A stretch of DNA of 42,515 nucleotides from a phage, in sequence record PP754824.1. One strand, written 5' to 3'. Of this stretch, positions 1 to 42,515 are shown piece by piece (within the stretch, counting starts at the first letter, position 1; each line of letters starts with the position of its first letter). A program made the translations under genes and the position numbers. The notes under the pieces are model-generated. The model was not told the origin of the DNA, searched no databases, and saw only the letters and a list, made by a program, of their open reading frames with translations.

Positions 1-381
1 AGAACGTCCCACTTTAGCGGCAACAACGCCACTTTCATTTACGAAAACCTTGTCACCAAATGCCGGAGCAGCTGCAAGAGTAGTGCGAACCCAAATACGA
101 CCAGAAGTCATTACGTTAACTGCCTCAAGGCCGCGAGCCTGACCATCTGGAGTCTCATAATGAGATTTAACAACAACGCCGTAAGGTTTAATTGCAGTTC
201 CTGATATAGCCGGAAGGGCAACAACCTTGTGACCATCTACTGGCTGAGCGGTGCTAACACCTACGAATGTTCCAACCGGGATTCTAGTGGCAGCAGTACC
301 ACCAACTACACAAGCACCATCGATATTATACAGGGAAGTATCAGCTACCATACCTGCCAGAGCTACAGAACGAATTGCCAT
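1..381 (-). CDS. 5' portion of a ~165-aa structural gene that wraps across the window ends (continues at 42275..42515); candidate head decoration protein by position
   Basis: ATG at 381 preceded by GGAG RBS; reading frame is open to position 1 and continues in the identical sequence at the window end; sits between protease/scaffold and major capsid genes as gpD does in lambda. Confidence 0.5.
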   Translation of the reverse strand, partial: MAIRSVALAGMVADTSLYNIDGACVVGGTAATRIPVGTFVGVSTAQPVDGHKVVALPAISGTAIKPYGVVVKSHYETPDGQARGLEAVNVMTSGRIWVRTTLAAAPAFGDKVFVNESGVVAAKVGRS

Positions 382-4392: not shown

Positions 4393-4899
4393 TTACGCTC
4401 TCGTATTTAGGTAGCCTTTATTTTCAGAGCCATGATTTTCATGATATCCGTTCAATTTGTCATACTGCGACCTTGCCAATGCAGCCTCCTCTATAGTGTC
4501 CTTGTAGCATATGAAGACTGTTTTACCAAACTCTCTAGCCTGAACAAGCCATCTATTCTCTCTTTTGCACCAGCTTACACCGTTTATTCCGCTTTTATTT
4601 CTTGATGATAGTGATCTGTTATTTGAGTTCTCTTTATTGCTTACTAACCTTAAGTTCTCTATTCTATTGTCACTTCTATTTTGGTTTATGTGATCTATGT
4701 ACATGCCTTTAGGGATTGCTCCATTGTGCATCTCCCACACCACCCTGTGACACCTGTATGCTTTTTGTCTATACTTTAGTATCACATAGCCAAATTTATC
4801 AACTCTTCCGGCCACCTCTCCAACCTTTGATACATTTGCTACTTTTACCTTTCTTATTAAAAGCCCGTCTCTATATTCAAAAATATCATGCCAATTCAT
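4393..4899 (-). CDS. HNH homing endonuclease (HNH_3 + AP2-like domain)
   Basis: IDHINQNRSDNRIENLRLVS HNH motif followed by SGINGVSWCKRENRW AP2-like segment; N-terminus MNWHDIFEYRDGLL is paralogous to 33191..33661; inserted between terS and terL. Confidence 0.85.
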   Translation of the reverse strand: MNWHDIFEYRDGLLIRKVKVANVSKVGEVAGRVDKFGYVILKYRQKAYRCHRVVWEMHNGAIPKGMYIDHINQNRSDNRIENLRLVSNKENSNNRSLSSRNKSGINGVSWCKRENRWLVQAREFGKTVFICYKDTIEEAALARSQYDKLNGYHENHGSENKGYLNTRA

Positions 4900-5813: not shown

Positions 5814-5889
5814 TGGTGTTCCGCGCTGGACTCGAACCAGCAACTAAGACTTAGGAGGTCTTTGCGTTATCCTGTTACGCCAGCAGAAC
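5814..5889 (-). tRNA. tRNA-Arg (anticodon CCU), CCA encoded
   Basis: Hand-folded cloverleaf on the minus strand: 7-bp acceptor stem GTTCTGC/GCGGAAC (one G-U), D-arm GCGT/ACGC, anticodon stem AAGAC/GTCTT with loop CTCCTAA, T-arm GCTGG-TTCGAGT-CCAGC, discriminator A, CCA. Confidence 0.8.
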
Positions 5890-7500: not shown

Positions 7501-7548
7501 ATTATGCCGGATTTCTCCGGCGATTGTTTAGCAATTCGTGCTATTGTC
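7501..7548 (-). promoter_or_regulatory. conserved promoter box (AATAGCACGAATTGCTAAACAATCGCC), 22-nt spacer, -10 CATAAT
   Basis: Canonical box copy; TAG stop of 7541..7879 lies inside the box; spacer hairpin CCGGAGAAATCCGG. Confidence 0.6.
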
Positions 7549-7879
7549 CATTCAGGAGTAATTTAGCTTCCCGATAAAACTCCATCGCCGCCTCAACCTC
7601 TTCCTCGCTGTACCGCAAGTGGTATGGTAGTCTACTAGGATGCTCACCTTCGTATACTTTGAAGTTAGGTTCCCAACACTCATCAAGGATTGCAGGGTGA
7701 ACATAAATCTTATCACCAATCATGCAGACGAGATTCATCTTCTCTAGGTCTGGGATAAGTCCCTCCTGAAGCCTCGCCGTTAGTCTGACATTACGTGAAT
7801 CAACTGGTTTTGATTTCCTGAGGCCTTCGTATAATGACCTAACACCAAGCACCCCTTTCCCGTTTCTTCCCATTTTCAT
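7541..7879 (-). CDS. stand-alone paralogue of the C-terminal domain of the 527-aa P-loop protein (112 aa)
   Basis: NGKGVLGVRSLYE...MIGDKIYVHP aligns with NGKGVVGVRSLYE...LIGDKIYINP at the C-terminus of 10672..12255. Confidence 0.6.
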   Translation of the reverse strand: MKMGRNGKGVLGVRSLYEGLRKSKPVDSRNVRLTARLQEGLIPDLEKMNLVCMIGDKIYVHPAILDECWEPNFKVYEGEHPSRLPYHLRYSEEEVEAAMEFYREAKLLLNGQ

Positions 7880-8634: not shown

Positions 8635-8662
8635 ATAGTATCACACATCTACATGTTATCAA
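8635..8662 (-). promoter_or_regulatory. candidate sigma70-type early leftward promoter (-35 TTGATA, 16-nt spacer, -10 TACTAT)
   Basis: Read on the minus strand about 40 nt upstream of the 8592 start; overlaps three spaced TGTTATC repeats. Confidence 0.4.
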
Positions 8663-8845
8663 GTGTTATCTCATGTTATTTTCAGCCAGATACGCCAAAC
8701 CACTCTGAGAGCCGCGCCAGAAGCGGTGTAAATGTCGTGTGTATGAATTTCCGCGGAAATGTCGGGGGTATACCTATATATATTAATATAGATAAATATA
8801 GTCATTTTCATAAAAAACTATCGACCCTCCCCATATGACAGATAT

Positions 8846-8950
8846 ACAAGATATACATATATATAATAATAATAATAATAATAAAGTAAAAGGTTGATAT
8901 ATATAGATATTATTATGTAACCATTGCGTAATTGCGCGTTATAGGCGTAC
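8846..8950. repeat. AT-rich ~100-bp element, copy A, with (TAA)n microsatellite
   Basis: Near-identical to 24310..24420: shared GATATACA, (ATA/TAA)n, AGTAAAAGGTTGATATATATAGATATT, ATGTAACCA, TGCGTAA. Confidence 0.7.
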
Positions 8951-9111
8951 AGCATTCCTACGGAGGGTGGGTGCATCTACACAACATAACTTCGGTAACG
9001 TGTACATCCAAAATGGCTCAGCCAGAATCAAAATCAACTTGTATGGTAGTCCTTCCTCTATTCATTCACTCCAACACAAATAATTGCTAAATTCGCAACA
9101 ATCAAAAAAAT

Positions 9112-9180
9112 CATTGCATCAGATGCAATATTGCTATATGTGCAATAATGAGATGAATCATTGCAATAACTGCAATAATA
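9112..9180. repeat. iteron-like cluster of five TGCAAT(A) repeats including palindrome ATTGCATCAGATGCAAT
   Basis: Direct reading of the non-coding region just upstream of the rightward early promoter. Confidence 0.5.
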
Positions 9181-9193
9181 CATAAACCCAACG

Positions 9194-9239
9194 AATAGCA
9201 CTTTTTGCTAATGACAAACATTGGTAACGAGACCATAAT
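9194..9239 (+). promoter_or_regulatory. conserved promoter box (AATAGCACTTTTTGCTAA), about 22-nt spacer, -10 CATAAT
   Basis: Plus-strand copy ahead of the rightward early genes; leader CATCAACAACGAGGAGAGAGAT precedes the ATG at 9267. Confidence 0.55.
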
Positions 9240-9860: not shown

Positions 9861-10021
9861 TGCTATTACCATCTGAGATTAACTATTTTGATCTGGAAGT
9901 TATTAGTTCTTACAGCGGCAAGGGCTGGCCTTGCGGGGAATGGTTCAACGAGGACTTGCTTGAATCTCACGAGATTATGCTTAAGGCGATTGAGAAGGCG
10001 AGAAATAGCACGAATTGCTAA
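9860..10021 (+). CDS. small hypothetical protein (53 aa)
   Basis: Hand-translated; ATG overlaps upstream TAA; coding 3' end (ARNSTNC) is encoded by the promoter box. Confidence 0.35.
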   Translation: MLLPSEINYFDLEVISSYSGKGWPCGEWFNEDLLESHEIMLKAIEKARNSTNC

Positions 10022-10671: not shown

Positions 10672-12255
10672 ATGTTTGATTTCAACGAAGATAAACTATC
10701 TGTTGAACAAGTTATGGCGATTGCCGCGACCGACAACCTCCCACCGCTTCGCGTGGCCATTAATGCAAATGGCTATCGGCAGTCTCAATCATTCTGGAAA
10801 ACACCTGTGGAGATTGACGCAGGTAATGACAAGTACCCTGTAATATCTCTAGGCAATGACATTGATGTTGTTGGTAAGCTCTCGGCAAATATTGCTCGCT
10901 CAGTTCAGTTCCCAGAGTCATCAGCATACATGCACTTTTTGGGTTGTGTGTCCGCTGCGATGCTAGGGCGCTTTACTGTTGAGTATCACGGAACCCAGCA
11001 GCCAACATCGCTTTACGTGGTAACTAGCCAGCCGCCATCTACTGGTAAGTCAGCCATTAACTCTCTGTCAATTGCGCCAATGATTGCTGAGACTGAGCGT
11101 TTGAACGAGGTGCGTAAACGTGACCGCAAAAAGATTATGGCTAAGCTGTCTGCGCTAGCAAAAGAAATGAAACAGGAGAAGTCACCATCTGAGATGGCTT
11201 CACTGTTTGAGGAGAAGGAAGATTTAGAGGAAAAGCTCGAGAAGCTGTGCGATATCGTATTCCCGGTCTCAGATACTACGCCAGAAGGTCTTGCACGAAT
11301 CAACAACCGCCAGGGTAACTTTGCGGTCATCTCGGATGAGGCAACAAGCGTCAACTCATTATTGGGCATGACATACGGTGATGGTTCCAAGAAAACGAAC
11401 AGCGAGCTTGTACTTAAAGCGTGGGATGCTGGTAACGTATCTATTGCCCGCGCTAACGCAGAAAACAACATGAGTTTCGTGGCAATGGGGTGCATCTCTG
11501 TAATTGCTCAGGATGAAACAATCAATGCGATTATGAATGCTGGTGCGCGTGGTATTGGTGTTTCCGAGCGTTTCCTTCTGGTGCGTGAAAAGTCATTTCT
11601 TGGAGACCGCGTGTTTGTTGATGAGAATGGCGATTCAACATACGAGGCTATTGATGATGGTCTTAAAGCAGACTATTTCCGTCTCGTTCATGAAATTATG
11701 AATGAAGTTGAAGTGAAACTGACAGTAAGTGCGTCATCCATGCGCTACCTTAACCGAGCTCGCCAGGAAATGGAACCGCATCTTGGTGATGGCGGTAAAT
11801 ATTCCCACACGATGTTACGTGGTGCTCTTGGTAAATTTGATAAGCAAGCAATCCGTATTGCCTCAGTATTGCACGTTATTCGCAACTGGTTCGCACCGGC
11901 GGGGTCGAGTCCGCAGAAATCAAGAGAGATTGAGCTTGAAACAATGCAAGAAGCGGTTATGATTTTCCACGAGTTAAGCAAGACTTATTTGTCGTCCGCT
12001 AGTGCTGCTGGTCATGCTGGTGATAATGCTGAAATGAATAAGCTGGTTGATATCCTGATTAAGCAAGGTAAGAATGGGAAGGGTGTTGTTGGCGTTCGCT
12101 CACTGTATGAAGCAGCACGCAAAGTTAAACCTTTTGAAGGACAGGCTGGCGTAATGACTCGCATCAAGGACCACTTGGTTCCTATGCTTGATGAGAAAAA
12201 CTATACATGCCTGATTGGTGATAAGATTTACATTAATCCGCGATTGTTGGGGTGA
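10672..12255 (+). CDS. P-loop NTPase, putative replication initiation/helicase-type protein (527 aa)
   Basis: Walker A-like QPPSTGKSA and Walker B-like AVISDEAT; N- and C-terminal segments have paralogues at 7541..8074. Confidence 0.55.
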   Translation: MFDFNEDKLSVEQVMAIAATDNLPPLRVAINANGYRQSQSFWKTPVEIDAGNDKYPVISLGNDIDVVGKLSANIARSVQFPESSAYMHFLGCVSAAMLGRFTVEYHGTQQPTSLYVVTSQPPSTGKSAINSLSIAPMIAETERLNEVRKRDRKKIMAKLSALAKEMKQEKSPSEMASLFEEKEDLEEKLEKLCDIVFPVSDTTPEGLARINNRQGNFAVISDEATSVNSLLGMTYGDGSKKTNSELVLKAWDAGNVSIARANAENNMSFVAMGCISVIAQDETINAIMNAGARGIGVSERFLLVREKSFLGDRVFVDENGDSTYEAIDDGLKADYFRLVHEIMNEVEVKLTVSASSMRYLNRARQEMEPHLGDGGKYSHTMLRGALGKFDKQAIRIASVLHVIRNWFAPAGSSPQKSREIELETMQEAVMIFHELSKTYLSSASAAGHAGDNAEMNKLVDILIKQGKNGKGVVGVRSLYEAARKVKPFEGQAGVMTRIKDHLVPMLDEKNYTCLIGDKIYINPRLLG

Positions 12256-16362: not shown

Positions 16363-16407
16363 ATAATACACCACTTCATCAATTCGTCTTTAGCAATTCG
16401 TGCTATT
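16363..16407 (-). promoter_or_regulatory. conserved promoter box (AATAGCACGAATTGCTAA), 22-nt spacer, -10 TATTAT
   Basis: TAG stop of 16403..16822 lies in the box; -10 inside inverted repeat GATGAAGTG..CACTTCATC; leader CATCGAAACGAAACACACG. Confidence 0.6.
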
Positions 16408-16822: not shown

Positions 16823-18813
16823 AACAATTCTCCAAAATTCTTAAAAGCGATTATATCTTTACCTTTGCCGTTTTTTCTATGTGTAACCTGCACTGGTGCG
16901 CGGAACTTATCCACGTTCGCCATAATCATTCTCGCATTGCGAAGTCTGCCAATTCTTGTGGCTTCAGCGCGATTCTCTATATGAGCAAGGCAGAAGTTCT
17001 TCCATAGCACGCTGCAAACTCGATGGTCAGACTCGGGGTTGAAGAATTCCCATGCATTAAACCGATCTCCGTTATGAGCCATGATATTGTACTTAACAAC
17101 AATTCCGGTTTGATTCTTACTTAAGCCAACTTGAAAATCATAAACAAGAAGGTAATCACCACGACGATACATCTTACCTGTAAGGTTAGCATTGGGGTCT
17201 TTAAGCATCTCTCCGCACTCTCGACAGACCTTCGCTGCTATATCATTGCGAGTCCCGCACCCTTTTTTGATAATAGCCTTTGTCTGCAGGTCTGTAATAT
17301 CTTCACAAACTGTAAAAGTAAAGAAGTGCTCACATCTCTTTCCGTCAATCTTATTTCCGCATCTACGAGCAAAAGGCGAATTCTCGTATGAGCAAATTGG
17401 GCACACTCGAACCTCTGAATCACCATTGCGTGATGACTTAAACTTCTCGGCCTGAATCTCTTCAATTATTGGATCAAAGTAAAGTTCAGCCATATCATCA
17501 AGTGCGCCAGCAAAGTCCAGGACTAAGTGGTCATCCTTTTTCATACCAATTTCAATATGTTTCTTCTTGAGAATTCGCATTCCACGACCAAGAAGCTGAA
17601 TCATTAATGTCAGGCTTCCAATCCTGCGGAGTATGACACTTGTGTCCCACGGAGGCACCGAAACGCCTGTGGTTAAGCATCCAATCTGAAAAATAATCTT
17701 GTACTTTCCGGTCTGGCATTCATCTAGAATTTCCCTTCTCTTCTTCTCACCAGTGGAATCAGTGATTATCGCGTAAGGATAACCATCGGGTAGAGCAGCA
17801 GCCGCTTCATCGCAGTGCATTTTACCAGCGCAAGTTACCAGTGCGGCGTTACGTGTTTCAAGTATTTTGATAACGAACCCCATTATCTTTTGTGTCATCG
17901 TCTGGTTTTCGTGAATCTTTGCAGCCATTGCATCCATTTCTTTTTTGCTGAAATCCTTAACGCCATCACTTCCATCAGGTGCAAACTCGCTAAGGTCATA
18001 ACCCAAATCACCAACCTCACCGTAAACAGTTGGAACAACGAATCCCAAATCAACCAGGTAACTGGTCGGAACTTGCATTACCGTCTTGCGCCAGAAGCCA
18101 CGAATATTTGGGTTACTAACTACAATGTGGTCGTTGTTACGATACGGGCTACCAGTCAAGCCGAATATACGGAGCTCGCGACCATACTTCTCTTTGCAGC
18201 GGCGCTTCATTTCAGTGATGATTAGTGTGTACTGCGCACGACCAGTTCCAAGAAATCCGGTATTCACTCCATCCTTGAAAACCATTTCGCCTTTCTTGGT
18301 GCTCATTTGCTCAAATGTCTCTTCGTTCTCTTCAGCTTCTACGATATCCATGTGGTCCACCATGTGTGCCTCATCTATTGCGATAACCGCAGGAACATAG
18401 TCACCAAGACCCTTAAACAATCCATTGGCAGCCGTTCCTTCACTAGCCACTATGGTTGGGTAATAAACTGATTTAACGTTAAGGCCAGCGCAATATACGC
18501 TATTACGAATGCCAAAGCTGCGAAGTTCTTCAGCGTTCTGACTGATAATTTCAGACTGGCGAGAAAGTACCATATAAGGAAGGCCAAGTTGCTCCATGCG
18601 TTTACCAATCATGGCAATAATGATTGTCTTGCCAGCCGATACAGACAGGTCTGCGATGAACGGAGCTTCGTACTTAGCAATATTCTTGCCGATTTGGTCG
18701 AATGTCACGCACTGGAATGGATACGGCGTAATATCTCCAAACTGATAGTCTCTCTGAATCTGCTTAATCTTTTCTTGGTCAAAGTTTGCCACTAAGCGTT
18801 CTACTGGAAGCAT
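16819..18813 (-). CDS. SF2 DEAD/DEAH-box helicase with C-terminal zinc-ribbon region (664 aa)
   Basis: Motif I SVSAGKT, motif II IDEAH, helicase C-terminal region, then Cys clusters CPICS...RRCGN and CRECG. Confidence 0.85.
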   Translation of the reverse strand: MLPVERLVANFDQEKIKQIQRDYQFGDITPYPFQCVTFDQIGKNIAKYEAPFIADLSVSAGKTIIIAMIGKRMEQLGLPYMVLSRQSEIISQNAEELRSFGIRNSVYCAGLNVKSVYYPTIVASEGTAANGLFKGLGDYVPAVIAIDEAHMVDHMDIVEAEENEETFEQMSTKKGEMVFKDGVNTGFLGTGRAQYTLIITEMKRRCKEKYGRELRIFGLTGSPYRNNDHIVVSNPNIRGFWRKTVMQVPTSYLVDLGFVVPTVYGEVGDLGYDLSEFAPDGSDGVKDFSKKEMDAMAAKIHENQTMTQKIMGFVIKILETRNAALVTCAGKMHCDEAAAALPDGYPYAIITDSTGEKKRREILDECQTGKYKIIFQIGCLTTGVSVPPWDTSVILRRIGSLTLMIQLLGRGMRILKKKHIEIGMKKDDHLVLDFAGALDDMAELYFDPIIEEIQAEKFKSSRNGDSEVRVCPICSYENSPFARRCGNKIDGKRCEHFFTFTVCEDITDLQTKAIIKKGCGTRNDIAAKVCRECGEMLKDPNANLTGKMYRRGDYLLVYDFQVGLSKNQTGIVVKYNIMAHNGDRFNAWEFFNPESDHRVCSVLWKNFCLAHIENRAEATRIGRLRNARMIMANVDKFRAPVQVTHRKNGKGKDIIAFKNFGELL

Positions 18814-18853
18814 TTTAAATATCCTGATAGTTCTTTAGTTCGTTGCATTGATG

Positions 18854-18897
18854 TATAATAACAGCCATCGAACCCATTGTTTAACAAAAAGTGCTAT
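18854..18897 (-). promoter_or_regulatory. conserved promoter box, variant AATAGCACTTTTTGTTAA, about 22-nt spacer, -10 TATTAT
   Basis: Upstream of the helicase start at 18813; sits in the divergent region before the plus-strand gene at 18910. Confidence 0.5.
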
Positions 18898-18909
18898 TGA
18901 GGTAATGAG

Positions 18910-19392
18910 ATGTGTGAAATCGACAAGCGAACTATTAACGGCAATAACGGAACCGTGCGCACAAAAGACAAAAAGCAACGCAAACGACCATCAGGCTACT
19001 ACGTATTGAAAGATGAGGTAAAGGCTGGGCTACGTGCTCGCCTGGAGATGGTTCTTGATTTCTACGGTACAAAGGCGAACATCGCAAAGCAGTTAAATGT
19101 GTCCAACCAAGCTGTATCGGAATGGTTTAACCGCGGTATGATTTCGGCTCGAGGGGCTCAGCGAGCACATAATGCGTACAAGCGAAATAAGGAGGGATTT
19201 CGAGCTACATTCTGCCGACCAGACCTGCAATTCGACGGAAACGGAAAACCGCTAACACTTCGATGCAAGAAGCGCCATATGCTTCGCGTAGTTACCGATG
19301 CAGAACTAGCAACAAAGCCACCCTGTCGACCATGGCGAAAGAATAAGATTGCCAACGAAGCCGCACGAAAAGCTAAAGAAAGATCTGAATGA
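18910..19392 (+). CDS. HTH DNA-binding protein (YdaS/Cro-like), putative transcriptional regulator (160 aa)
   Basis: GTKANIAKQLNVSNQAVSEWFNRGMIS resembles Cro/YdaS-type helix-turn-helix; basic flanks. Confidence 0.55.
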   Translation: MCEIDKRTINGNNGTVRTKDKKQRKRPSGYYVLKDEVKAGLRARLEMVLDFYGTKANIAKQLNVSNQAVSEWFNRGMISARGAQRAHNAYKRNKEGFRATFCRPDLQFDGNGKPLTLRCKKRHMLRVVTDAELATKPPCRPWRKNKIANEAARKAKERSE

Positions 19393-20441: not shown

Positions 20442-21620
20442 ATGGCAATTTATGATTCTGGCACAGCAAGCCTGGCAGCCAACGGTACCGTAACTGGTAC
20501 TGGAACCAACTGGATGGCTCCGCTTACTCTCATTCGTGTAGGCGCCACTATTGTGTTCAAAACTGAACCAGTGAAGATTTACACTATCTCTGAAATTATC
20601 AGCGATACGCAGATTAATGTATACAACCCAAATTCTGAAACCGTTGCTGCTGGAACTGGTTACGCCATTCTTCTTCATGATGGTATTACAGTTCAGGGTT
20701 TGGCACAGGACGTAGCCGAGACGCTTAGATTTTATCAGTCAAATAATTATGTGAGCGGTGGTGATGATGGGAATGTAAAATTAGAGAACGGAGGAACAGG
20801 AGCTAGTACAGCACCTGAAGCGCGTAACAACCTCGGGCTTGGTCCATTGTCCACAGTTAATGTGGCTCCAATAGAGAACGGAGGAACAGGAGCTAGTACA
20901 GCACCTGAAGCGCGTAACAACCTCGGGCTTGGAACTTCTGCTGTCATTGATCATGGCTATGATCCTGGGCAGGTTCAACTAGTTTTTGGATCAAGGATAA
21001 TGCGAACCGACAAGCCCAAAACAACCTGGACGTATGGATATGAACCTATTAGTCCAACCAACTTATACTACCTAGATTATGTTGTATTTATGGATATGCC
21101 TGGACCAACTGCTAGAGAGTGGGCTCAGCTTGCCGTTTCTTATGCGGAAAGGAGATGCTATATAGCTAACTCAACTTATAATAACGGCCTTGGGTTCATG
21201 GAACTTTACCACTCACAAAACGTAACCGTAGACTCTAACGGTTTCCTTAAAAAGGCTTCTCCTATAATTAAAGTCTTCAGTGATGGTGGTTTTGAAACAA
21301 ACGAGCAATCAAAGGGAGCTACAGTGGAGAGAGTTTCCACTGGTGTTTATAGGGTATCAGGTGTGCTTGGTCTAAATTCGGATGCCTCCTGGGGTGGTGT
21401 TAATGGTGGCTTTGAGATACCTTTAGATGCAAACAAGCAGCCAAGAATATGGCTAGATTATGAGGTTGAGTCTAATGGCTCAATAGTAGTAAAAACTTAC
21501 CATCGAACTCACGATTCATCCCCGTCCTTTGCAAGAAATAAAGTTGAAGGTTTTAGTAACGGCGATCCTATAGATATTCCTTCTGACTCTTTCGTTTCAA
21601 TTCGAGTAAATATGCCATAA
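20442..21620 (+). CDS. tail fibre protein with tandem fibre-repeat motifs (392 aa)
   Basis: Two copies of ENGGTGASTAPEARNNLGLG (phage tail-fibre repeat type); separate plus-strand transcription unit with own RBS and terminator. Confidence 0.7.
   Translation: MAIYDSGTASLAANGTVTGTGTNWMAPLTLIRVGATIVFKTEPVKIYTISEIISDTQINVYNPNSETVAAGTGYAILLHDGITVQGLAQDVAETLRFYQSNNYVSGGDDGNVKLENGGTGASTAPEARNNLGLGPLSTVNVAPIENGGTGASTAPEARNNLGLGTSAVIDHGYDPGQVQLVFGSRIMRTDKPKTTWTYGYEPISPTNLYYLDYVVFMDMPGPTAREWAQLAVSYAERRCYIANSTYNNGLGFMELYHSQNVTVDSNGFLKKASPIIKVFSDGGFETNEQSKGATVERVSTGVYRVSGVLGLNSDASWGGVNGGFEIPLDANKQPRIWLDYEVESNGSIVVKTYHRTHDSSPSFARNKVEGFSNGDPIDIPSDSFVSIRVNMP
20784..20932 (+). repeat. two perfect 59-bp direct repeats (20784..20842 and 20874..20932) inside the tail fibre gene
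   Basis: Identical nucleotide strings GAGAACGGAGGAACAGGAGCTAGTACAGCACCTGAAGCGCGTAACAACCTCGGGCTTGG. Confidence 0.9.
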
Positions 21621-21650: not shown

Positions 21651-22082
21651 TCAGAAGGGGATATCATCCTCGAAGTTCTTCTGCTGTTGAGGTTGACGCT
21701 GCTGCTGTTGTTGCTGTTGCTGCTGCTGTTGTTGCTGCTGCTGTTGTTGCTGAGGTTGTGAATCACCACGCTGACTAAACTCAAGTCGAGGGTTGTTCAT
21801 ATTGATCGTTACGTAGGTCTTACCATCTTTATCACGAACATCAACAGCCAGGCTTTCAGCGCTCACGCTAACAACTTTACCCTCCTGGAACGCCTCGTTG
21901 TACCAATCTAACATTGACTCTTTAGCGAAGAAGACGGCGCGATAGTTACTATACTGTGCATTCCCATCTTTATCCTTGTATCTCTCACTCAAGTCAACCG
22001 CAAACATTTTCCAGTTACCATTTGCGTTTTGACCTTCTTTGGTGAATGGGGCGCGGCGAATCTGACCAGTAATTACGTGCAT
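21651..22082 (-). CDS. ssb: single-stranded DNA-binding protein with poly-Gln linker and acidic DDIPF tail
   Basis: OB-fold-like N-terminal region, run of about 20 Gln, C-terminal FEDDIPF as in bacterial and phage SSBs. Confidence 0.85.
   Translation of the reverse strand: MHVITGQIRRAPFTKEGQNANGNWKMFAVDLSERYKDKDGNAQYSNYRAVFFAKESMLDWYNEAFQEGKVVSVSAESLAVDVRDKDGKTYVTINMNNPRLEFSQRGDSQPQQQQQQQQQQQQQQQQQQRQPQQQKNFEDDIPF
21680..21758 (-). repeat. CAG/CAA trinucleotide tract encoding the SSB poly-Q linker
   Basis: Plus strand shows (CTG/TTG)n over about 75 nt. Confidence 0.9.
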
Positions 22083-23818: not shown

Positions 23819-24013
23819 TCACCCCTTGACCTTAACTACTTTAACAGACTTCAAATCTTCTTCAGTGAAGTAACCGGTCAGTACATCGCGGGCTTCTCCT
23901 TTGGTCTCGAATCTGTCTGCTTCGTTCTTATCCGTGGTGTAACCGGCCTCTCCTCCAAAGTAGCAGTCGCCGAACAGTGCGTTGTTTTTCTCTTTGATAA
24001 TGTAGTAGGTCAT
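23819..24013 (-). CDS. hypothetical protein (64 aa)
   Basis: ORF track. Confidence 0.45.
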   Translation of the reverse strand: MTYYIIKEKNNALFGDCYFGGEAGYTTDKNEADRFETKGEARDVLTGYFTEEDLKSVKVVKVKG

Positions 24014-24235
24014 TTATATATCTCTCTGGTTGATTGCTTTCGATGAGGTAACTATATATTCAGCACCGTAACCAGTCCAATTGGTTTTGCCAATCGTTGA
24101 TTTAAGTTTACGCGTGAATCTTTGTAATTTCGTGTAGGCATTGGCACTAGTTACGCTTTTTGGCATCTCAAGCCAGCCATAGCTCAATGTAAACATCGTG
24201 TATATCGTGTATGCCGTTTCTCGCTGAGGGTGCAT
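24014..24235 (-). CDS. hypothetical protein (73 aa)
   Basis: ORF track. Confidence 0.45.
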   Translation of the reverse strand: MHPQRETAYTIYTMFTLSYGWLEMPKSVTSANAYTKLQRFTRKLKSTIGKTNWTGYGAEYIVTSSKAINQRDI

Positions 24236-24309
24236 TGGTATAGCTGCCGCGCAATACTGTATAAATACACATGATATTAAAATTATAACCGGAACACTCT
24301 ATAGAAGTA

Positions 24310-24420
24310 GTTACATGATATACACAGTAATATATATAATAATAATAATAAGAGTAAAAGGTTGATATATATAGATATTTTAATGTAACCAATGCGTAAA
24401 TTGGCGTAACAGCGCGTATA
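24310..24420. repeat. AT-rich ~100-bp element, copy B, with (TAA)n microsatellite
   Basis: Near-identical to 8846..8950; lies in the second divergent intergenic region. Confidence 0.7.
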
Positions 24421-24499
24421 TCATTTCCCGCGGATGAGATTGTATACATCGAGTTACATCGGTTACGTGTAACTGTGATTTATGGTGAAATTGTCGATA

Positions 24500-24544
24500 A
24501 ATAGCACGATTTGCTAAAGACAACTGGCTATCTTTAGGTATATT
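24500..24544 (+). promoter_or_regulatory. conserved promoter box (AATAGCACGATTTGCTAA), 22-nt spacer, -10 TATATT
   Basis: Plus-strand copy ahead of the 24625..26101 gene set. Confidence 0.55.
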
Positions 24545-25456: not shown

Positions 25457-25726
25457 ATGAACTACGAGAAAGAGATTGCAAAAGCGAAGAAAGAGCTCAA
25501 TGAAAAGGTTGTGACAATCCTGGTAAACAACGCTCTTTTTGTTAAGCGCGCAGAGTTACTAGCAGATGACGACCCTGTCAGAAATGAGTTAATAAATCAC
25601 ATCACTGAGTCTTCATTTATTATCTCTGGCGCCCTTAAATGCACGGTCGAGCAGGCTCTTAACTTGATATTCGCTTATCGGCATTACAATGTTAAGTCCA
25701 TTCCTGGCTGTGAGGATATTCACTAA
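25457..25726 (+). CDS. hypothetical protein (89 aa)
   Basis: ORF track. Confidence 0.45.
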   Translation: MNYEKEIAKAKKELNEKVVTILVNNALFVKRAELLADDDPVRNELINHITESSFIISGALKCTVEQALNLIFAYRHYNVKSIPGCEDIH

Positions 25727-25769
25727 TAGCACTAATTGCTAAACACTTATCGCAAGGATGCGGTATTAT
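25725..25769 (+). promoter_or_regulatory. conserved promoter box (AATAGCACTAATTGCTAA), 22-nt spacer, -10 TATTAT
   Basis: Leader CATCGAAACGAAACACAC then RBS AAGGAA and ATG at 25810. Confidence 0.6.
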
Positions 25770-27319: not shown

Positions 27320-30300
27320 TTAACCCAAGTATCCTAATTTTACCCTAACCACTCCATTCCGGTCCAGGACTCTCATCTTGCCACGATCGGAACCCCTAAG
27401 CGTCAATCCATCATCCTTATCTAGCCTCCAGCCTGAATTTGTACCCCAGTCATTAGACTGAATAAAGTTACCAATCTTCGCGTTACTGATTGAGCCATCG
27501 CCGATAACTGCACTCTTGATGATTACGTTTCCATTCTCGACAACGAAGGGGAGTTGCCACTGACCGGAGCCGGAACCAATGCCGTTACTGATAGCGAATC
27601 TGTTTGCGTCAAAAATGAATTGACTACGAACATTGTCACCAGTGCCGACAAGCTCCATGCTCATACCGGATGAATAAGTCTGTCCATTGTATTTCAGGCC
27701 AAGACTAATTCCGTACTGCACACCAGTCGATGTGGCATTAGAGAATGCGTCCAGCTTCTGGTTTAAAGCCGCCTCATTTTCACCAAGTCTTGCTGATAGA
27801 GTCGTGTCTGCAGTAGTCCTTGCTTCTGTCTCTGTGGCTAATGCAGTCTGAACTTCTGTAATCGATGCTACAACTTCATCATCTATCTGCGCCTTAAGGG
27901 CCGTTAGAGCCTCTACGCGCGCCTGAGTTTCATCGGCTATGAGATTCACAGCCTGAACATATTCAGCCTTACGCTTGCCGTTCTCCTTTGTCATTCTGCG
28001 AACATCGCCATCATTAGCCAGTGCGTTCTCGATAATTGCCTCAGCTTGATTCTGAATGTCCTGATTCTTTTGAATCGCATTCTGCTCGAGGTATTTGAAT
28101 CCTTCTGAACCTTCAATATCAACCTTGATGAAATCATTGATAATGTTTGCGTCGTCAGTACTCATGCCTCTTGCGAAATTAGACCAATCAGAGGTATTTC
28201 CGATTCTGTCAATCAATCTTGCGCGATACCAAATCACCTTACCTGGCTGAATTGGCGTATGCCAGTATTCGTAGGCAGGATAAGGAAGTAACGTAAGCAA
28301 ACTTGCATTATCAGGATTGTAAGTACCATCACCATTATCTGGAACCTGCTGAAGCTCAGTGTAAGCAGTATCGCCAGAGCCTTCAGGGAATCCCCATTTA
28401 ACACGGATACCAAATACTTCATCAGTTGACGCCGTGATAACCGTAGGTGCCGATGGGCGACCAATCTTGCCAGTTAGCGATACCGTTACAATACCAGACC
28501 AGGCAGACACGTTTTCAGTATCTGATACGCTGCGAACCCTAACGTCATAAATTCCTGCGTAAATACCTTCGATATCAACCTCTGTGCTAGCTGTTCTTGG
28601 TACGTTAATCCAGTTGCCATTCTCTTTTCTCCACTGAACATTGTAGGTTTTAGCGTATGGCGCTTTATCCCACCCGATAACCATCGTCTCAACTGATAAT
28701 CCTTGAACAACCTTGCTGTAGCTTGACACTGTTAAATTCTCAGGTGGCGACAATCTATCAGGCTCTACGACTGAAGTTGGACGGTCAACAATATTAACGC
28801 CGTAGTCAATCTCGTCATACTTGTTAGGGTCATACTCCACCGCAGTAATCGTGTACTGAAATGAATCAGAGCCGTCAGTATCTGCCTTTTGAATCCCGGT
28901 CACAACATACTGCTGAAGCGCAAGGTTATCCTTATCAATTGCGAACACAGTGTCTGGCTGAGCTACAAAACTGAAAGCAGTGTTAAGGTTGATTGTTCTG
29001 CCGTCTTCCGAAACACTGGCAATAGTTCTTGCCTCCGGGCTTCCGTCTGGCTTGTTAAGAATAATTCTGTCACCCGGCGCTGCGTCAACTTTAAACGGTG
29101 TAAAAACCTGTAGCCCCTGCACTGATTCAATGCGGCCGGAAAGGTTCAACTGATAGTTGCTCGACCATGCCGCATCATTAACTGCAATAACCTCGCCAAT
29201 CATCGGAATCATGCCTTCCAACCCGGTAGTGAAGCTGATAGTTTCGCTTCTCAGGTTGGTTTTTAGGAGCCATCTGCCGCGTCTGTTTGCTTCACTTCTG
29301 CGAGTGCAGCCAATTGCCGTAAGGTCGACTGGATTAAACCCGAACCTGCGAGTAGCCTCAAGCTCAAATACTGGCTCAACATCCTGCTGATAGTTGTTCT
29401 CTACATCATCAAACTGAACGTTTGCCGTGGTGTAAAGACTTTTATCGCTGGCAAATGTGCGACTGAACAATCCGTTTACAACGTTATCATTGGTGAAGAT
29501 GTAAGATGGGTTGCGAGGCTTATCAACCACGATGCCAATCTTTTCGCCGTCATAGAAAGTCAGGCCGCGAAAGATTGAACAGATATCACGAATTAGCGTG
29601 TAAGCCTCAACCTTGTTCTGTACAACCATATCGCAAAGGTAACGCGGCTCTAAGCCACCCTTGCCATCTGGAACCATCTGGTCACAGAATTGTGCAGCTT
29701 CGTACAGGCCCCACTTATCAATCTCTACACCCAGCTCTCGCTGGTCAAGTCCGTAACGGCGGTTTGTTACTAGGTCATAAAGAACCCATGCTGGGTTGTT
29801 TGACCATGCCATCTTGAATAGACCATTCCATGTGCCGCTATAAGTTCTGGTTTCAGGGTTATAGTTTGTAGGAACCTGAATCAACTTCCATCTCTTCTTG
29901 ATTGAGATTGTTGGGATGCCGTTAGGGAACAAGTCAGAACCAAACTCAACGTAAACCAGAGCCGTAAGCGGATAGCGGAATTTAGCGTCAATTACTTCCT
30001 GATAGGTTGTAATCTGCATACCGTTAACCAGGGTGCTACTTGTTGAATCCGGCGTAATCTTACGGATGCGAACAAGCGCGCTATCAAATTCTGCCGGAAG
30101 GTTTACGCGAATGCTTCGGTCGTAACCTGTAGTGGTCTTTCCGTTAGCAACTCCGCGAGTGTATTCCTGGTAAGCGCCACCATTAACAGAAAGGTCAATT
30201 GCATACTCGCAGGTTGTTCCGTTCAGGTCTCCATTGCTTTCTTGCTTAACCAGTCGAGGCCAGAATAGCTTAACTCGAATTGCCGAAAGCTGGCTGTTAT

Positions 30301-36754: not shown

Positions 36755-37081
36755 CTATTTCTTGGCGTTCATCATATCTAAGGCTTTAGCCTCAAGTATT
36801 CTGATATCGTTAAGTACCATTTCTTCATCATCTATTTTATAGACTTTGAACAAGAATGGAAGGCAATTATAATCAAGGCCTGTGGCACCGCAAGCACCTA
36901 CTCGCCATTGTGTCGACATAGCACAGTACACATCCCAGCTTTGCATCATTGTTTCATCGAAGTGTAACTCTTCAGGCTCCTCACCTTCATAATCGGAACG
37001 TTTCATTCCGATAGCTTCGAGTTCGGCATCCGTTGGCGGTGACTGGTATTGTAAGTATACTGCGCGTTTTAGTTTTTTACT
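36755..37081 (-). CDS. tail assembly chaperone G-T, -1 frame extension (fusion made by programmed frameshift from 37069..37383)
   Basis: Reading the -1 frame from the A_AAA_AAC slippery heptamer runs without a stop into ORF 36755..37006. Confidence 0.65.
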   Translation of the reverse strand, partial: SKKLKRAVYLQYQSPPTDAELEAIGMKRSDYEGEEPEELHFDETMMQSWDVYCAMSTQWRVGACGATGLDYNCLPFLFKVYKIDDEEMVLNDIRILEAKALDMMNAKK

Positions 37082-37383
37082 CGCTGCCCTGCAAGTGCTT
37101 TCATGTAGCTATCCATTAGCGATGGAACTGCACCAGGGAAAAGGTTTGCAAACTCATCGACGTTCTCATCGTTAAATGGTTCTTCTAAATCCCAGTCAGA
37201 GCAGATTTCGCTAATCAATTCCTTAGTGCTGAAGTTTTCACGATTAAGAATCTCCTGTAACTCAGATGATTTCTTGTGCTTAACTGTTAAGACTACTTCT
37301 GCGTCCTCTCCATTCGCAAGCTGAAACTTAACTGGAAGTTTAAAGTCAGGAAGCGCCTTAAGTGAAAGTTTGAATTTTGCCAT
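37069..37383 (-). CDS. tail assembly chaperone G-like (104 aa)
   Basis: Position upstream of tape measure; acidic; ends just after the slippery heptamer. Confidence 0.7.
   Translation of the reverse strand: MAKFKLSLKALPDFKLPVKFQLANGEDAEVVLTVKHKKSSELQEILNRENFSTKELISEICSDWDLEEPFNDENVDEFANLFPGAVPSLMDSYMKALAGQRVKN
37072..37078 (-). other. programmed -1 ribosomal frameshift slippery site A_AAA_AAC
   Basis: Minus-strand codons GTA AAA AAC TAA; plus strand shows GTTTTTT. Confidence 0.65.
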
Positions 37384-42274: not shown

Positions 42275-42515
42275 TTAAGCCACAGTTGAGTCTGCGGATT
42301 GAATCAGCTGAACTTCAACCAGTGCGCCATCAACGCTTTCACTAGCTGATACATAGCCACCAGCAAATGTGAAACCAGTTCCCCAGGTAGAACGTCCCAC
42401 TTTAGCGGCAACAACGCCACTTTCATTTACGAAAACCTTGTCACCAAATGCCGGAGCAGCTGCAAGAGTAGTGCGAACCCAAATACGACCAGAAGTCATT
42501 ACGTTAACTGCCTCA
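42275..42515 (-). CDS. 3' portion of the wrap-around structural gene (joins 1..381)
   Basis: Frame is open from the window end down to the TAA at 42275; the last 127 nt duplicate positions 1..127. Confidence 0.5.
   Translation of the reverse strand, partial: EAVNVMTSGRIWVRTTLAAAPAFGDKVFVNESGVVAAKVGRSTWGTGFTFAGGYVSASESVDGALVEVQLIQSADSTVA
42389..42515. repeat. 127-bp exact duplicate of positions 1..127 (terminal overlap of a circular or terminally redundant genome)
   Basis: Direct comparison of the first and last 127 nt. Confidence 0.95.

What the first reader, a model, noticed from the sequence alone, without database searches (positions are those of the whole stretch)
8846..8950. Copy A of a duplicated ~100-bp AT-rich element in the leftward/rightward early control region
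This segment and 24310..24420 share long identical stretches (GATATACA, a TAA microsatellite, AGTAAAAGGTTGATATATATAGATATT, ATGTAACCA, TGCGTAA) though 15.4 kb apart. Both lie at the centre of a divergent intergenic region between a leftward and a rightward unit. Candidate roles are a replication origin, a bent or IHF-bound promoter element, or a packaging signal.
Basis: seen in the sequence. Interest (0 to 1): 0.6.

Follow-up and report, generated by a model that had tools for sequence, protein, structure and literature searches.

The report
Paired AT-rich islands, candidate replication origins
This T1-like coliphage carries two related ~110-bp AT-rich islands that are the two easiest places in its genome to pull the DNA strands apart, the same pair sits at the same two loci in every T1-family genome examined, and they are the best candidate yet for the family's unmapped replication origins, though that is not proven.

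Summary
Window 8841-8931 and 24312-24399 align at 94% over 64 nt (E 1e-21) and share an exact 27-mer that is not expected by chance. The window is a complete T1-like phage (Drexlerviridae, Braunvirinae).

The two copies are the least stable duplex sites in the genome (z 5.4 and 5.0; the next is 3.2). The same holds at the same two syntenic loci in T1, Rtp, MSK, KP36 and TLS, so 6 of 6 genomes. One locus lies upstream of the first early gene, next to pac. The other lies upstream of recE.

Across subfamilies, each copy resembles its partner in the same genome more than its ortholog elsewhere. Lineage-specific short repeats cluster around both copies (KP36 GTAAGAT 13 of 19 copies, p 1e-17; T1 TGTAACA 6 of 6). 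Copy B is better conserved than the genes beside it.

The packaging terminus maps about 100 bp outside copy A, in an A-only insert, so the shared module is not pac. There is no RNA family, fold or coding signal, and no convincing sigma-70 promoter. The IHF consensus is confined to Braunvirinae.

Best reading, at about 0.45: DNA-unwinding elements of two origin modules. The main rival is an architectural or regulatory element for two early operons. Nothing here is tested experimentally.

The parts
8836..8950 (.). AT-rich island, copy A. Contents: GATATACA x2 (8841-8857), TA/(TAA)7 tract (8857-8884), invariant 27-mer core (8885-8911, holding the IHF-consensus TATCAACCTTTTA on the minus strand at 8887-8899), ATGTAACC (8915-8922), and three GCGT boxes spaced 10 and 9 bp apart (8926-8949).
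   Evidence: Least stable 100-bp window of the genome (8833-8932, z 5.40).
24312..24420 (.). AT-rich island, copy B. Contents: GATATACA (24317-24324), TA/(TAA)5 tract (24330-24351), the same 27-mer core (24353-24379; IHF consensus at 24355-24367 on the minus strand), ATGTAACC (24383-24390), and three GCGT boxes at an exact 10-bp period (24394-24417).
   Evidence: Second least stable window (24293-24392, z 4.98). 91-99% identical to seven relatives, while the adjacent recE DNA is 67-91%.
8992..9004 (+). Collinear shared box TCGGTAACGTGTA. Its partner in B is at 24459-24471.
24459..24471 (+). Collinear shared box TCGGTTACGTGTA. Its partner in A is at 8992-9004.
8749..8758 (.). Palindrome TTCCGCGGAA beside copy A. 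A related CCCGCGGA lies beside copy B at 24427-24434. In Rtp, all three TCCGCGGA sites of the genome lie in these two regions.
9005..9193 (-). Insert specific to locus A, holding the probable pac region. The homolog of the MSK PhageTerm headful start maps to about 9046, with packaging running toward lower coordinates. TGCAAT repeats lie at 9100-9180. Position 1 of the Rtp record corresponds to about 9135.
9194..9239 (+). Rightward promoter of the family's known 21-nt repeat type: ATAGCACTTTTTGCTAA followed by ATGACA-17-CATAAT.
24500..24544 (+). Rightward promoter of the same type: ATAGCACGATTTGCTAA followed by AAGACA-16-TATATT.
8635..8662 (-). Best sigma-70-like promoter for the leftward early unit: TTGATA-16-TACTAT with an extended TG. 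It lies about 175 bp from copy A.
   Evidence: Analogous sigma-70 promoters lie 170-250 bp from the islands in TLS (P01, P51) and KP36.
10672..12255 (+). DUF3987 helicase. Its last ~70 residues are predicted to form a winged helix. It is a candidate, untested, origin-recognition protein.
7541..7879 (-). Stand-alone paralog of the helicase C-terminal domain: 51% identical to helicase residues 463-526.

Best explanation
The two copies are the DNA-unwinding cores of two paralogous origin-of-replication modules, which I call oriA and oriB.

Proposed anatomy of each module: a very AT-rich tract that is easily melted and forms no hairpin (TA steps plus a TAA microsatellite), set beside short protein-binding boxes. 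In this phage those are three GCGT boxes about one helical turn apart, ATGTAAC/GATATAC boxes, a CCGCGG palindrome and an IHF-consensus site.

Proposed mechanism, all of it inferred and none shown:
- A phage-encoded, lineage-specific DNA-binding protein occupies the boxes. The most concrete candidate is the predicted winged-helix C-terminal domain of the DUF3987 helicase.
- In Braunvirinae, IHF bends the DNA.
- Negative supercoiling generated behind the flanking, outward-firing promoters melts the AT tract.
- The phage helicase and primase then load there and recruit the host polymerase.

What is shown: the repeat is real, it is the extreme of duplex instability, the pair is conserved at the same loci across the family, the two copies co-evolve, and the repeat is not RNA, not coding and not the pac terminus.
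For: (1) Both copies are the two least stable 30-, 50- and 100-bp windows of the genome (z about 5; the third site is about 3.2).

(2) The same ranking holds at the same two syntenic loci in T1, MSK, Rtp, KP36 and TLS. That is 6 of 6 genomes, from Braunvirinae, Tunavirinae, Tempevirinae and the genus Webervirus. It holds in KP36 even though the recE module is inverted and moved there, and in TLS even though locus B is not divergent.

(3) The copies evolve in concert. Local-alignment scores for A vs B within a genome are 47 (T1), 50 (TLS), 93 (KP36) and 81 (window). Pairs across subfamilies score 20-44. The shuffled null is 15 +/- 3.

(4) Lineage-specific short repeats cluster at both islands:
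- KP36 GTAAGAT, 13 of 19 genome copies, p 1.4e-17.
- T1 TGTAACA, 6 of 6, p 2.5e-10.
- Rtp TCCGCGGA, 3 of 3 sites, p 6e-10.
- TLS GTGAACA, 4 of 8.
- Window ATGTAAC 4 of 8 and GATATAC 4 of 7.

(5) Three GCGT boxes at a 10-bp period are present in every Braunvirinae B copy and in Rtp A.

(6) Island B is 91-99% identical among seven relatives, while recE DNA is 67-91%.

(7) The microsatellite length varies from (TAA)4 to (TAA)7 between copies. This fits a bulk unwinding role better than one that depends on exact spacing.

(8) No origin is known for the family (PMC11447400 and PMC7718038). The phage encodes its own helicase and primase. The helicase ends in a predicted winged helix that diverges more between lineages than the helicase core does, by inspection of the alignment rather than a computed figure.

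(9) Two separated origins have a precedent in phage SPP1 (PMC3561973).
Against: There is no experimental or read-depth evidence.

GC skew only follows gene orientation.

The repeats are short (5-8 bp), and in this window their enrichment is modest and partly a by-product of the duplication itself.

Each island keeps a fixed position and orientation upstream of one particular operon (the DUF7174-first early unit, and recE-erf-ssb) in all six genomes, including after the KP36 rearrangement. A cis-regulatory element would predict exactly that.

In KP36 the repeat boxes run right up to the recE promoter, as operators would.

There are no DnaA boxes and no GATC clustering.

The fold matches for the helicase C-terminus are weak (Foldseek E >= 0.04). 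DUF7174 gave no informative fold match.

The IHF consensus is not conserved outside Braunvirinae.
Confidence: 0.45

Rival explanations
1. An architectural or regulatory element for early transcription. In this reading the island is an upstream nucleoprotein platform (IHF, or H-NS/Fis-type proteins, and/or a phage regulator bound to the flanking boxes). It activates, represses or times the two early operons it always precedes (the DUF7174-first unit and recE-erf-ssb), and perhaps the divergent rightward promoters. It may also contain weak promoters of its own that use the microsatellite as a -10.
For: Position and orientation are fixed upstream of the same two operons in six genomes, including the rearranged KP36 and the non-divergent TLS locus B.

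The best sigma-70-like promoter of each unit lies 170-250 bp downstream.

The IHF consensus is present in both copies.

Promoter-like matches occur in both copies: TTTACT-16/18-TATTAT/TATATT on the minus strand and TATACA-16-AATAAT on the plus strand.

The CEB_EC3a record annotates two predicted divergent promoters over its copy B.

The repeat boxes extend to the promoters in KP36.
Against: The promoter-like matches reach only 9 of 12 and are no more frequent than in shuffled sequence (6 vs 4.3 +/- 2.3 and 6 vs 3.4 +/- 1.8).

The candidate -35 hexamers are not conserved. AGTAAA becomes ACTAAA in the MSK and Rtp A copies.

The islands sit too far upstream (about 170-250 bp in A, T1, TLS and KP36) to act as UP elements.

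The IHF consensus is missing in four of the six lineage copies examined.

Ten or more repeat boxes in about 450 bp (KP36 locus B) is unusual for an operator.

A third sigma-70-driven divergent region (18814-18909) has no island.
Confidence: 0.3
2. A packaging accessory site. In this reading copy A is part of the pac recognition region bound by the small terminase subunit (as pacL/pacR flank the cut in SPP1), and copy B is a relic or a secondary packaging start.
For: Copy A lies about 100 bp from the position homologous to the PhageTerm headful start of phage MSK.

The T1, Rtp, TLS and KP36 records all begin roughly 200-275 bp from island A.

According to PMC8421802, the Rtp paper discussed ATATA repeats in connection with the T1 pac site.

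Short repeats plus an IHF site also characterise lambda cosB and P1 pac (my own knowledge).
Against: The terminus and the TGCAAT repeats lie in a ~190-bp insert that only locus A has. The shared module excludes it.

Only one terminus was reported for MSK.

Copy B is the better conserved of the two, and it is retained at recE in all six genomes, which a relic would not be.
Confidence: 0.08
3. No specific function. The similarity would be kept up only by gene conversion between two AT-rich intergenic regions, or the element is or was a small mobile insertion.
For: The phage encodes RecE/Erf recombination functions, which could homogenise short repeats. The two copies of a genome resemble each other more than their orthologs do.
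Against: The pair persists at the same loci through divergence that has erased alignable similarity between subfamilies.

Island B is more conserved than the neighbouring genes.

No terminal inverted repeats were found, and there are no copies in E. coli genomes.

A 15-kb direct repeat is a deletion hazard that selection should remove if it were useless.
Confidence: 0.05

Closest known systems
Iteron-type origins with an AT-rich unwinding element and an IHF site (lambda ori; plasmid pSC101 and R6K gamma) - compared from my own knowledge
   Same: An extreme AT-rich, unstructured tract lies directly beside three or more short direct repeats about one helical turn apart. An IHF-consensus site sits at the junction. 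The whole lies among early or replication genes and next to active promoters.
   Different: The repeat boxes here are much shorter (GCGT(A), 5-8 bp) than classical 18-22-bp iterons. There is no DnaA box. No initiator has been identified. There are two copies 15.4 kb apart. Nothing has been shown experimentally.
Bacillus phage SPP1 oriL/oriR (two origins, 32.1 kb apart on the linear map; PMC3561973)
   Same: A virulent pac-type siphovirus with two separated, sequence-related origin regions.
   Different: In SPP1 the origin-binding protein G38P is known and oriL lies inside its gene (my own knowledge). Here the binder is unknown, both copies are intergenic, and there is no sequence relationship to SPP1.
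Satellite phage P4 ori plus crr, bound by the C-terminal winged-helix domain of the alpha primase-helicase (my own knowledge)
   Same: The replication proteins are of the same broad kind. The T1 primase is annotated as similar to alpha-type proteins. The helicase carries a C-terminal winged helix. There are two distant cis elements carrying the same short repeats. TLS boxes (TGTTCAC) resemble the P4 type I iteron as I recall it.
   Different: Primase and helicase are separate genes here. The P4 origin-binding domain was not among the top 50 fold matches. The spacing is 15 kb rather than 4.5 kb. Whether both copies are required is unknown.
The 21-nt Drexlerviridae direct repeat aaATAGCACnnnTTGnTAAAA (PMC11447400)
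   Same: It is the other conserved non-coding repeat of the family, and one copy lies downstream of each island (9194, 24500).
   Different: It is a different sequence with 15 copies. It always lies just upstream of a -35/-10 pair and points with the gene. The island does not contain it.
T1-family pac region
   Same: It shares the intergenic region with copy A.
   Different: The mapped terminus and its TGCAAT repeats lie outside the repeated element and are absent from locus B.

Membership tests
Replication origin (unwinding element plus repeats) | A discrete region of exceptionally low duplex stability | tested here: met
   Ranks 1 and 2 genome-wide by nearest-neighbour free energy in the window and in five relatives.
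Replication origin (unwinding element plus repeats) | Multiple short repeats (iterons), helically phased, next to the AT tract | tested here: inconclusive
   Three GCGT boxes at a 10-bp period in B and at 10 + 9 bp in A. Lineage-specific boxes are strongly enriched in KP36, T1 and Rtp. However, the boxes are short, and their enrichment in this window is only p about 1e-5.
Replication origin (unwinding element plus repeats) | Specific binding by an initiator, and initiation of DNA synthesis at the site | not testable with these tools
   This needs footprinting, marker-frequency analysis, 2D gels or plasmid-amplification assays.
Replication origin (unwinding element plus repeats) | Replication-linked strand asymmetry switching at the site | tested here: inconclusive
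   GC skew switches at both sites, but it switches at every change of gene orientation. The signal is confounded.
DnaA-dependent origin | DnaA boxes (TTWTNCACA) and GATC clustering | tested here: not met
   No DnaA boxes within 150 bp of any island in five genomes, and no GATC excess.
IHF binding site | Core consensus WATCAANNNNTTR with an AT-rich 5' flank | tested here: met
   TATCAACCTTTTA at 8887-8899 and 24355-24367 on the minus strand. Actual binding was not tested.
IHF binding site | Consensus conserved in orthologous elements | tested here: not met
   Present in Braunvirinae copies except Rtp A (TAACAACC). Absent from the T1, TLS and KP36 islands.
pac site | Coincides with the first headful cut | tested here: not met
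   The homolog of the MSK terminus maps to about 9046, about 100 bp outside copy A, in an insert that locus B lacks. This rests on homology, not on reads from this phage.
Sigma-70 promoter | -35 and -10 hexamers 16-18 bp apart, conserved in relatives, and more frequent than chance | tested here: not met
   Only 9-of-12 matches, no excess over shuffles. The -35 candidates vary and the microsatellite length changes the spacing.
Drexlerviridae 21-nt repeat | ATAGCACnnnTTGnTAA | tested here: not met
   There are 15 copies in the window and none lies inside the element. The nearest are at 9195 and 24501.
Structured RNA or DNA hairpin or cruciform | An Rfam match, or folding better than shuffled sequence | tested here: not met
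   There is no Rfam hit apart from a tRNA elsewhere in the window. Folding z-scores are +1.1 to +1.5 on both strands.
Protein-coding sequence | A reading frame conserved between the two copies | tested here: not met
   Minus-strand ORFs cross both copies, but a 1-nt indel (8884 / 24352) puts them in different frames, and the products are poly-Tyr.
Miniature mobile element | Terminal inverted repeats, and copies elsewhere | tested here: not met
   No flanking inverted repeats. No match in 5,426 E. coli genomes. Matches in the phage collection are confined to T1-like phages.

The most novel reading that the evidence does not exclude
T1-like phages (Drexlerviridae) initiate replication from a pair of co-evolving origin modules. 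One sits beside pac and the other beside the recE-erf-ssb recombination operon. Their lineage-specific boxes are read by the winged-helix tail of the phage's DUF3987 helicase. The widespread truncated helicase paralog (helicase N-terminus fused to the winged helix, phrog_7327) modulates that binding. This would make a P4-like ori/crr or SPP1-like oriL/oriR arrangement in one of the classical T phages, whose origin has never been mapped.
Probability: 0.3. Interest if true: 0.7.

Novelty: new member of a known kind. Interest (0 to 1): 0.55.

Why it matters
T1 is one of Delbruck's seven T phages, and its relatives are common laboratory and fermenter contaminants as well as phage-therapy candidates. 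Recent genome papers on the family still state that no origin of replication could be found (PMC11447400, PMC7718038).

This analysis gives two precise coordinates per genome, each 100-150 bp, that can be tested directly by marker-frequency sequencing, deletion or plasmid-amplification assays. It also separates them from the neighbouring pac region.

If the islands turn out to be regulatory instead, they would still define a conserved control module for the two earliest operons. Either way, annotation pipelines could flag them with a simple rule: the two least stable duplex sites of the genome.

Tried and rejected
- GC and AT skew only track gene orientation, so they say nothing about an origin.
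- Rfam scan and single-strand folding: no RNA family and no hairpin or cruciform.
- Coding potential: rejected, because the two copies are in different frames.
- Sigma-70 scans: no excess over shuffled sequence. My manual search for a conserved recE promoter in locus B found none conserved between the window and Rtp.
- DnaA boxes and GATC clustering: absent.
- IHF as a family-wide feature: rejected.
- Mobile-element idea: rejected.
- Sequence search of the helicase against PDB chains: nothing useful.
- Helicase C-terminal domain: the fold class is winged helix, but the E-values are weak and the P4 origin-binding domain was not retrieved.
- IMG/VR protein-anchored locus searches: they returned only a few near relatives, so I fetched whole GenBank genomes instead.
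- The Rtp genome paper (PMC1367250) is not held. The T1 genome paper carries no PMC id in the reference lists and I did not try to fetch it. Their statements about pac are therefore known only second-hand.
- Literature searches for T1 origin mapping or transcription-start maps found nothing.
- DNA curvature was not computed, because I did not trust wedge-angle tables recalled from memory.

Full report
**What the window is.** The window is a complete T1-like siphovirus genome. Its first and last 127 bases are identical, so the unique length is 42,388 bp. This is what a circularly closed assembly of a permuted, headful-packaged genome looks like. The nearest GenBank relatives are Escherichia phages IME542, IME253, TR3 and phiA2-1, all Drexlerviridae of the subfamily Braunvirinae. 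Gene order is that of T1 or Rtp read in reverse.

**The observation.**
- The 27-mer AGTAAAAGGTTGATATATATAGATATT occurs exactly twice, at 8885 and 24353, even when 3 mismatches are allowed. It never occurs in 100 dinucleotide-preserving shuffles.
- Without a low-complexity filter, 8869-8931 aligns to 24336-24399 at 93.75% over 64 nt, E 1e-21.
- The two intergenic regions are collinear paralogs over a longer stretch: island, then TCGGTwACGTGTA (8992 / 24459), then a promoter-type repeat (9194 / 24500).
- Locus A carries an extra ~190 bp (9005-9193) that locus B lacks.
- Both loci are divergent intergenic regions.

**Anatomy.** Read on the + strand, each copy runs as follows:
- GATATACA, twice in A and once in B.
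- A TA run followed by (TAA)7 in A or (TAA)5 in B.
- The invariant core.
- ATGTAACC.
- Three GCGT boxes, spaced 10 + 10 bp in B and 10 + 9 bp in A.

The core contains a perfect IHF core consensus, TATCAACCTTTTA, on the minus strand. A CCGCGG palindrome lies nearby at each locus.

**What it is not.**
- It is not a known RNA, and it folds worse than shuffled sequence on both strands (z +1.1 to +1.5), so a hairpin or cruciform is unlikely.
- Minus-strand ORFs run through both copies, but a 1-nt indel puts them in different frames and the products are poly-tyrosine. It is not coding.
- Sigma-70-like matches inside the element reach only 9 of 12 and are no more frequent than in shuffles.
- The convincing promoters lie outside it. 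One is TTGATA-16-TACTAT (extended TG) at 8662-8635, serving the leftward unit. The others are two copies of the family's known 21-nt repeat followed by -35/-10 hexamers at 9194-9239 and 24500-24544. That repeat was described in PMC11447400.

**The key physical property.** I computed a nearest-neighbour duplex free-energy scan. The two copies are the least stable sites of the whole genome at window sizes of 30, 50 and 100 bp. At 100 bp they score z 5.40 and 4.98, and the next site scores 3.16.

**Family-wide conservation.** I fetched five complete relatives and ran the same scan. In every one, the two least stable 100-bp windows fall at the same two syntenic loci.

| Genome | Locus A window (z) | Locus B window (z) |
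|---|---|---|
| T1 | 203-302 (5.9) | 29,997-30,096 (5.3) |
| MSK | 36,984-37,083 (4.85) | 17,628-17,727 (4.39) |
| Rtp | 202-301 (4.33) | 28,084-28,183 (4.78) |
| KP36 | 276-375 (5.76) | 34,771-34,870 (5.35) |
| TLS | 194-293 (4.58) | 28,810-28,909 (5.0) |

Locus A is always just upstream of the first gene of the long early-plus-late block, a DUF7174 protein. Locus B is always just upstream of the recE-erf-ssb operon. This holds in TLS, where the locus is not divergent, and in KP36, where the recombination module is inverted and relocated.

**Concerted evolution and lineage-specific boxes.** Between subfamilies the islands are no longer alignable, yet within each genome A still resembles B.
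- Local-alignment scores for A vs B are 47 (T1), 50 (TLS), 93 (KP36) and 81 (window). Pairs across subfamilies score 20-44. The shuffled null is 15 +/- 3.
- KP36's two islands share about 50 identical bases.
- Around both islands of a genome, short lineage-specific words pile up in both orientations:
  - KP36 GTAAGAT/ATCTTAC, 13 of 19 genome copies (p 1.4e-17).
  - T1 TGTAACA/TGTTACA, 6 of 6 (p 2.5e-10).
  - Rtp TCCGCGGA, 3 of 3 sites (p 6e-10).
  - TLS GTGAACA, 4 of 8, arranged as inverted clusters on either side of the island.
  - This window ATGTAAC 4 of 8 and GATATAC 4 of 7. These are weaker and partly a consequence of the duplication itself.
- None of the KP36 copies outside the two regions falls in the intergenic region upstream of the Cro-like regulator gene.
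- Island B is the best-conserved piece of its neighbourhood: 91-99% identity to seven relatives, against 67-91% for recE DNA and 72-89% for the small ORFs.
- The microsatellite length is free to vary, from (TAA)4 to (TAA)7.

**Relation to pac.** Published work places the T1-family pac site in the untranslated region at the conventional genome start (PMC7718038). For phage MSK, PhageTerm gave a single forward headful start at position 36,862 (PMC8421802).
- Aligning MSK, Rtp and the window puts that position at window 9046, and Rtp's position 1 at window 9135.
- Both lie in the A-only insert, among TGCAAT repeats, about 100-190 bp from the island.
- The T1, TLS and KP36 records also begin roughly 200-275 bp from their island A.
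- So copy A is a neighbour of pac, but the module it shares with B is not the pac site.
- This mapping is by homology. It was not measured on this phage.

**IHF and other host factors.** The IHF consensus is present in almost all Braunvirinae copies. It is broken in Rtp copy A and absent from the T1, TLS and KP36 islands. There are no DnaA boxes and there is no GATC clustering near any island.

**Candidate binding proteins.**
- The phage encodes a DUF3987 helicase, a zinc-ribbon primase and a Cro-like regulator.
- The last ~70 residues of the helicase are predicted (pLDDT 80-91 over that part) to form a helix-strand-helix-helix-hairpin unit.
- Its Foldseek matches are essentially all winged-helix domains, including those of MCM4 and MCM8, but the E-values are weak, 0.04 or worse.
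- By inspection of the alignment, not a computed figure, this tail is more divergent between lineages than the helicase core.
- It has a stand-alone paralog at 7541-7879, 51% identical over 65 residues. In relatives the paralog is a 174-182-residue fusion of the helicase N-terminus to this tail.
- DUF7174 gave no informative fold match.
- The Cro-like protein is 50-66% identical across subfamilies. It seems better matched to the conserved 21-nt repeat than to the lineage-specific boxes. That is only an idea.

**Interpretation.** My reading of the evidence points to a sequence-specific nucleoprotein assembly site whose core is built to melt. That evidence is: extreme meltability without secondary structure, adjacent phased and lineage-specific boxes, co-evolution of the two copies, conservation above that of the flanking genes, a phage-encoded helicase and primase, and the absence of any other origin candidate.
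- I therefore favour two origin modules, at confidence about 0.45. SPP1's oriL/oriR and, from my own knowledge, P4's ori/crr and the pSC101 or lambda origin layouts are the nearest analogues.
- The main rival, at about 0.30, is an upstream architectural or regulatory element for the two early operons. The invariant position and orientation relative to those operons predicts exactly that. The two roles are not mutually exclusive.
- A packaging role for the shared element is unlikely, at about 0.08.
- Absence of function is very unlikely.
- None of this has been tested experimentally. The decisive experiments are listed separately.

**Verdict.** It is a family-wide pair of paralogous AT islands. 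I found no description of the pair in the papers I could search or read. It gives the field a concrete, testable candidate for the missing T1-family origin. In kind, it would be a new member of a known class rather than a new mechanism.

Noticed in passing
window 4955-37909 (15 sites, e.g. 7528-7544, 9195-9211, 10005-10021, 16390-16406, 24501-24517, 25726-25742): The motif ATAGCACnnnTTGCTAA occurs 15 times (0.45 expected). Where I checked, it points with the downstream gene and is followed directly by -35/-10-like hexamers. It is the 21-nt repeat already described for TLS, T1 and Rtp, whose function is still unknown. Longer versions (61 nt) form repeat family D1. The well-conserved Cro-like protein (18910-19392) is a possible binder; this is an idea only.
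   Followed up: partly
window 9005-9193: Insert present only at locus A, with four or five TGCAAT(A) repeats (9100-9180). The sequence homologous to the PhageTerm headful start of phage MSK maps to about 9046, and several GenBank relatives start their records at positions equivalent to 9010-9204. This is the probable pac region, with packaging running toward lower coordinates.
   Followed up: partly
window 7541-7879 (-) and 10672-12255 (+): The 112-aa ORF is 51% identical to the last 65 residues of the DUF3987 helicase (predicted winged helix). [quoted passage not shown] It looks like an internally deleted mini-helicase and could be a regulator of the helicase.
   Followed up: partly
window 1-127 and 42389-42515: The 127-bp ends are exactly identical. 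This is most likely the overlap of a circularly closed assembly of a permuted genome rather than a biological terminal repeat. The unique length is 42,388 bp.
   Followed up: no
window 23819-24013 and 24014-24235 (-): Two adjacent, same-frame ORFs of 64 and 73 aa together match one 143-aa protein family (phrog_35664; rtp46 in Rtp). The first gene of the recE operon therefore seems to be split by an in-frame stop in this genome, either a nonsense mutation or a sequencing error.
   Followed up: no
window 20782-20842 and 20872-20932: A perfect 61-nt direct repeat with starts 90 bp apart, inside the 392-aa ORF 20442-21620. This is a recent in-frame 30-codon tandem duplication.
   Followed up: no
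window 4393-4899 (-): The ORF directly upstream of the large terminase gene is an HNH endonuclease (Pfam HNH_3, E 4e-22), as in Rtp (rtp20). It is not the small terminase subunit that its position suggests.
   Followed up: no
window 5817-5889 (-): One tRNA gene (Rfam 59 bits) lies among the small early ORFs.
   Followed up: no
whole window: GATC is scarce. The both-strand count is 96, which is 48 sites, where I estimate about 165 would be expected. T1 and KP36, which encode Dam-type methylases, give both-strand counts of 470 and 604.
   Followed up: no
window 21682-21752: An imperfect CTG/GTT triplet-rich repeat lies inside ORF 21651-22082 (-), the position of the ssb gene in relatives. On the coding strand it would give a Gln/Asn-rich stretch.
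   Followed up: no
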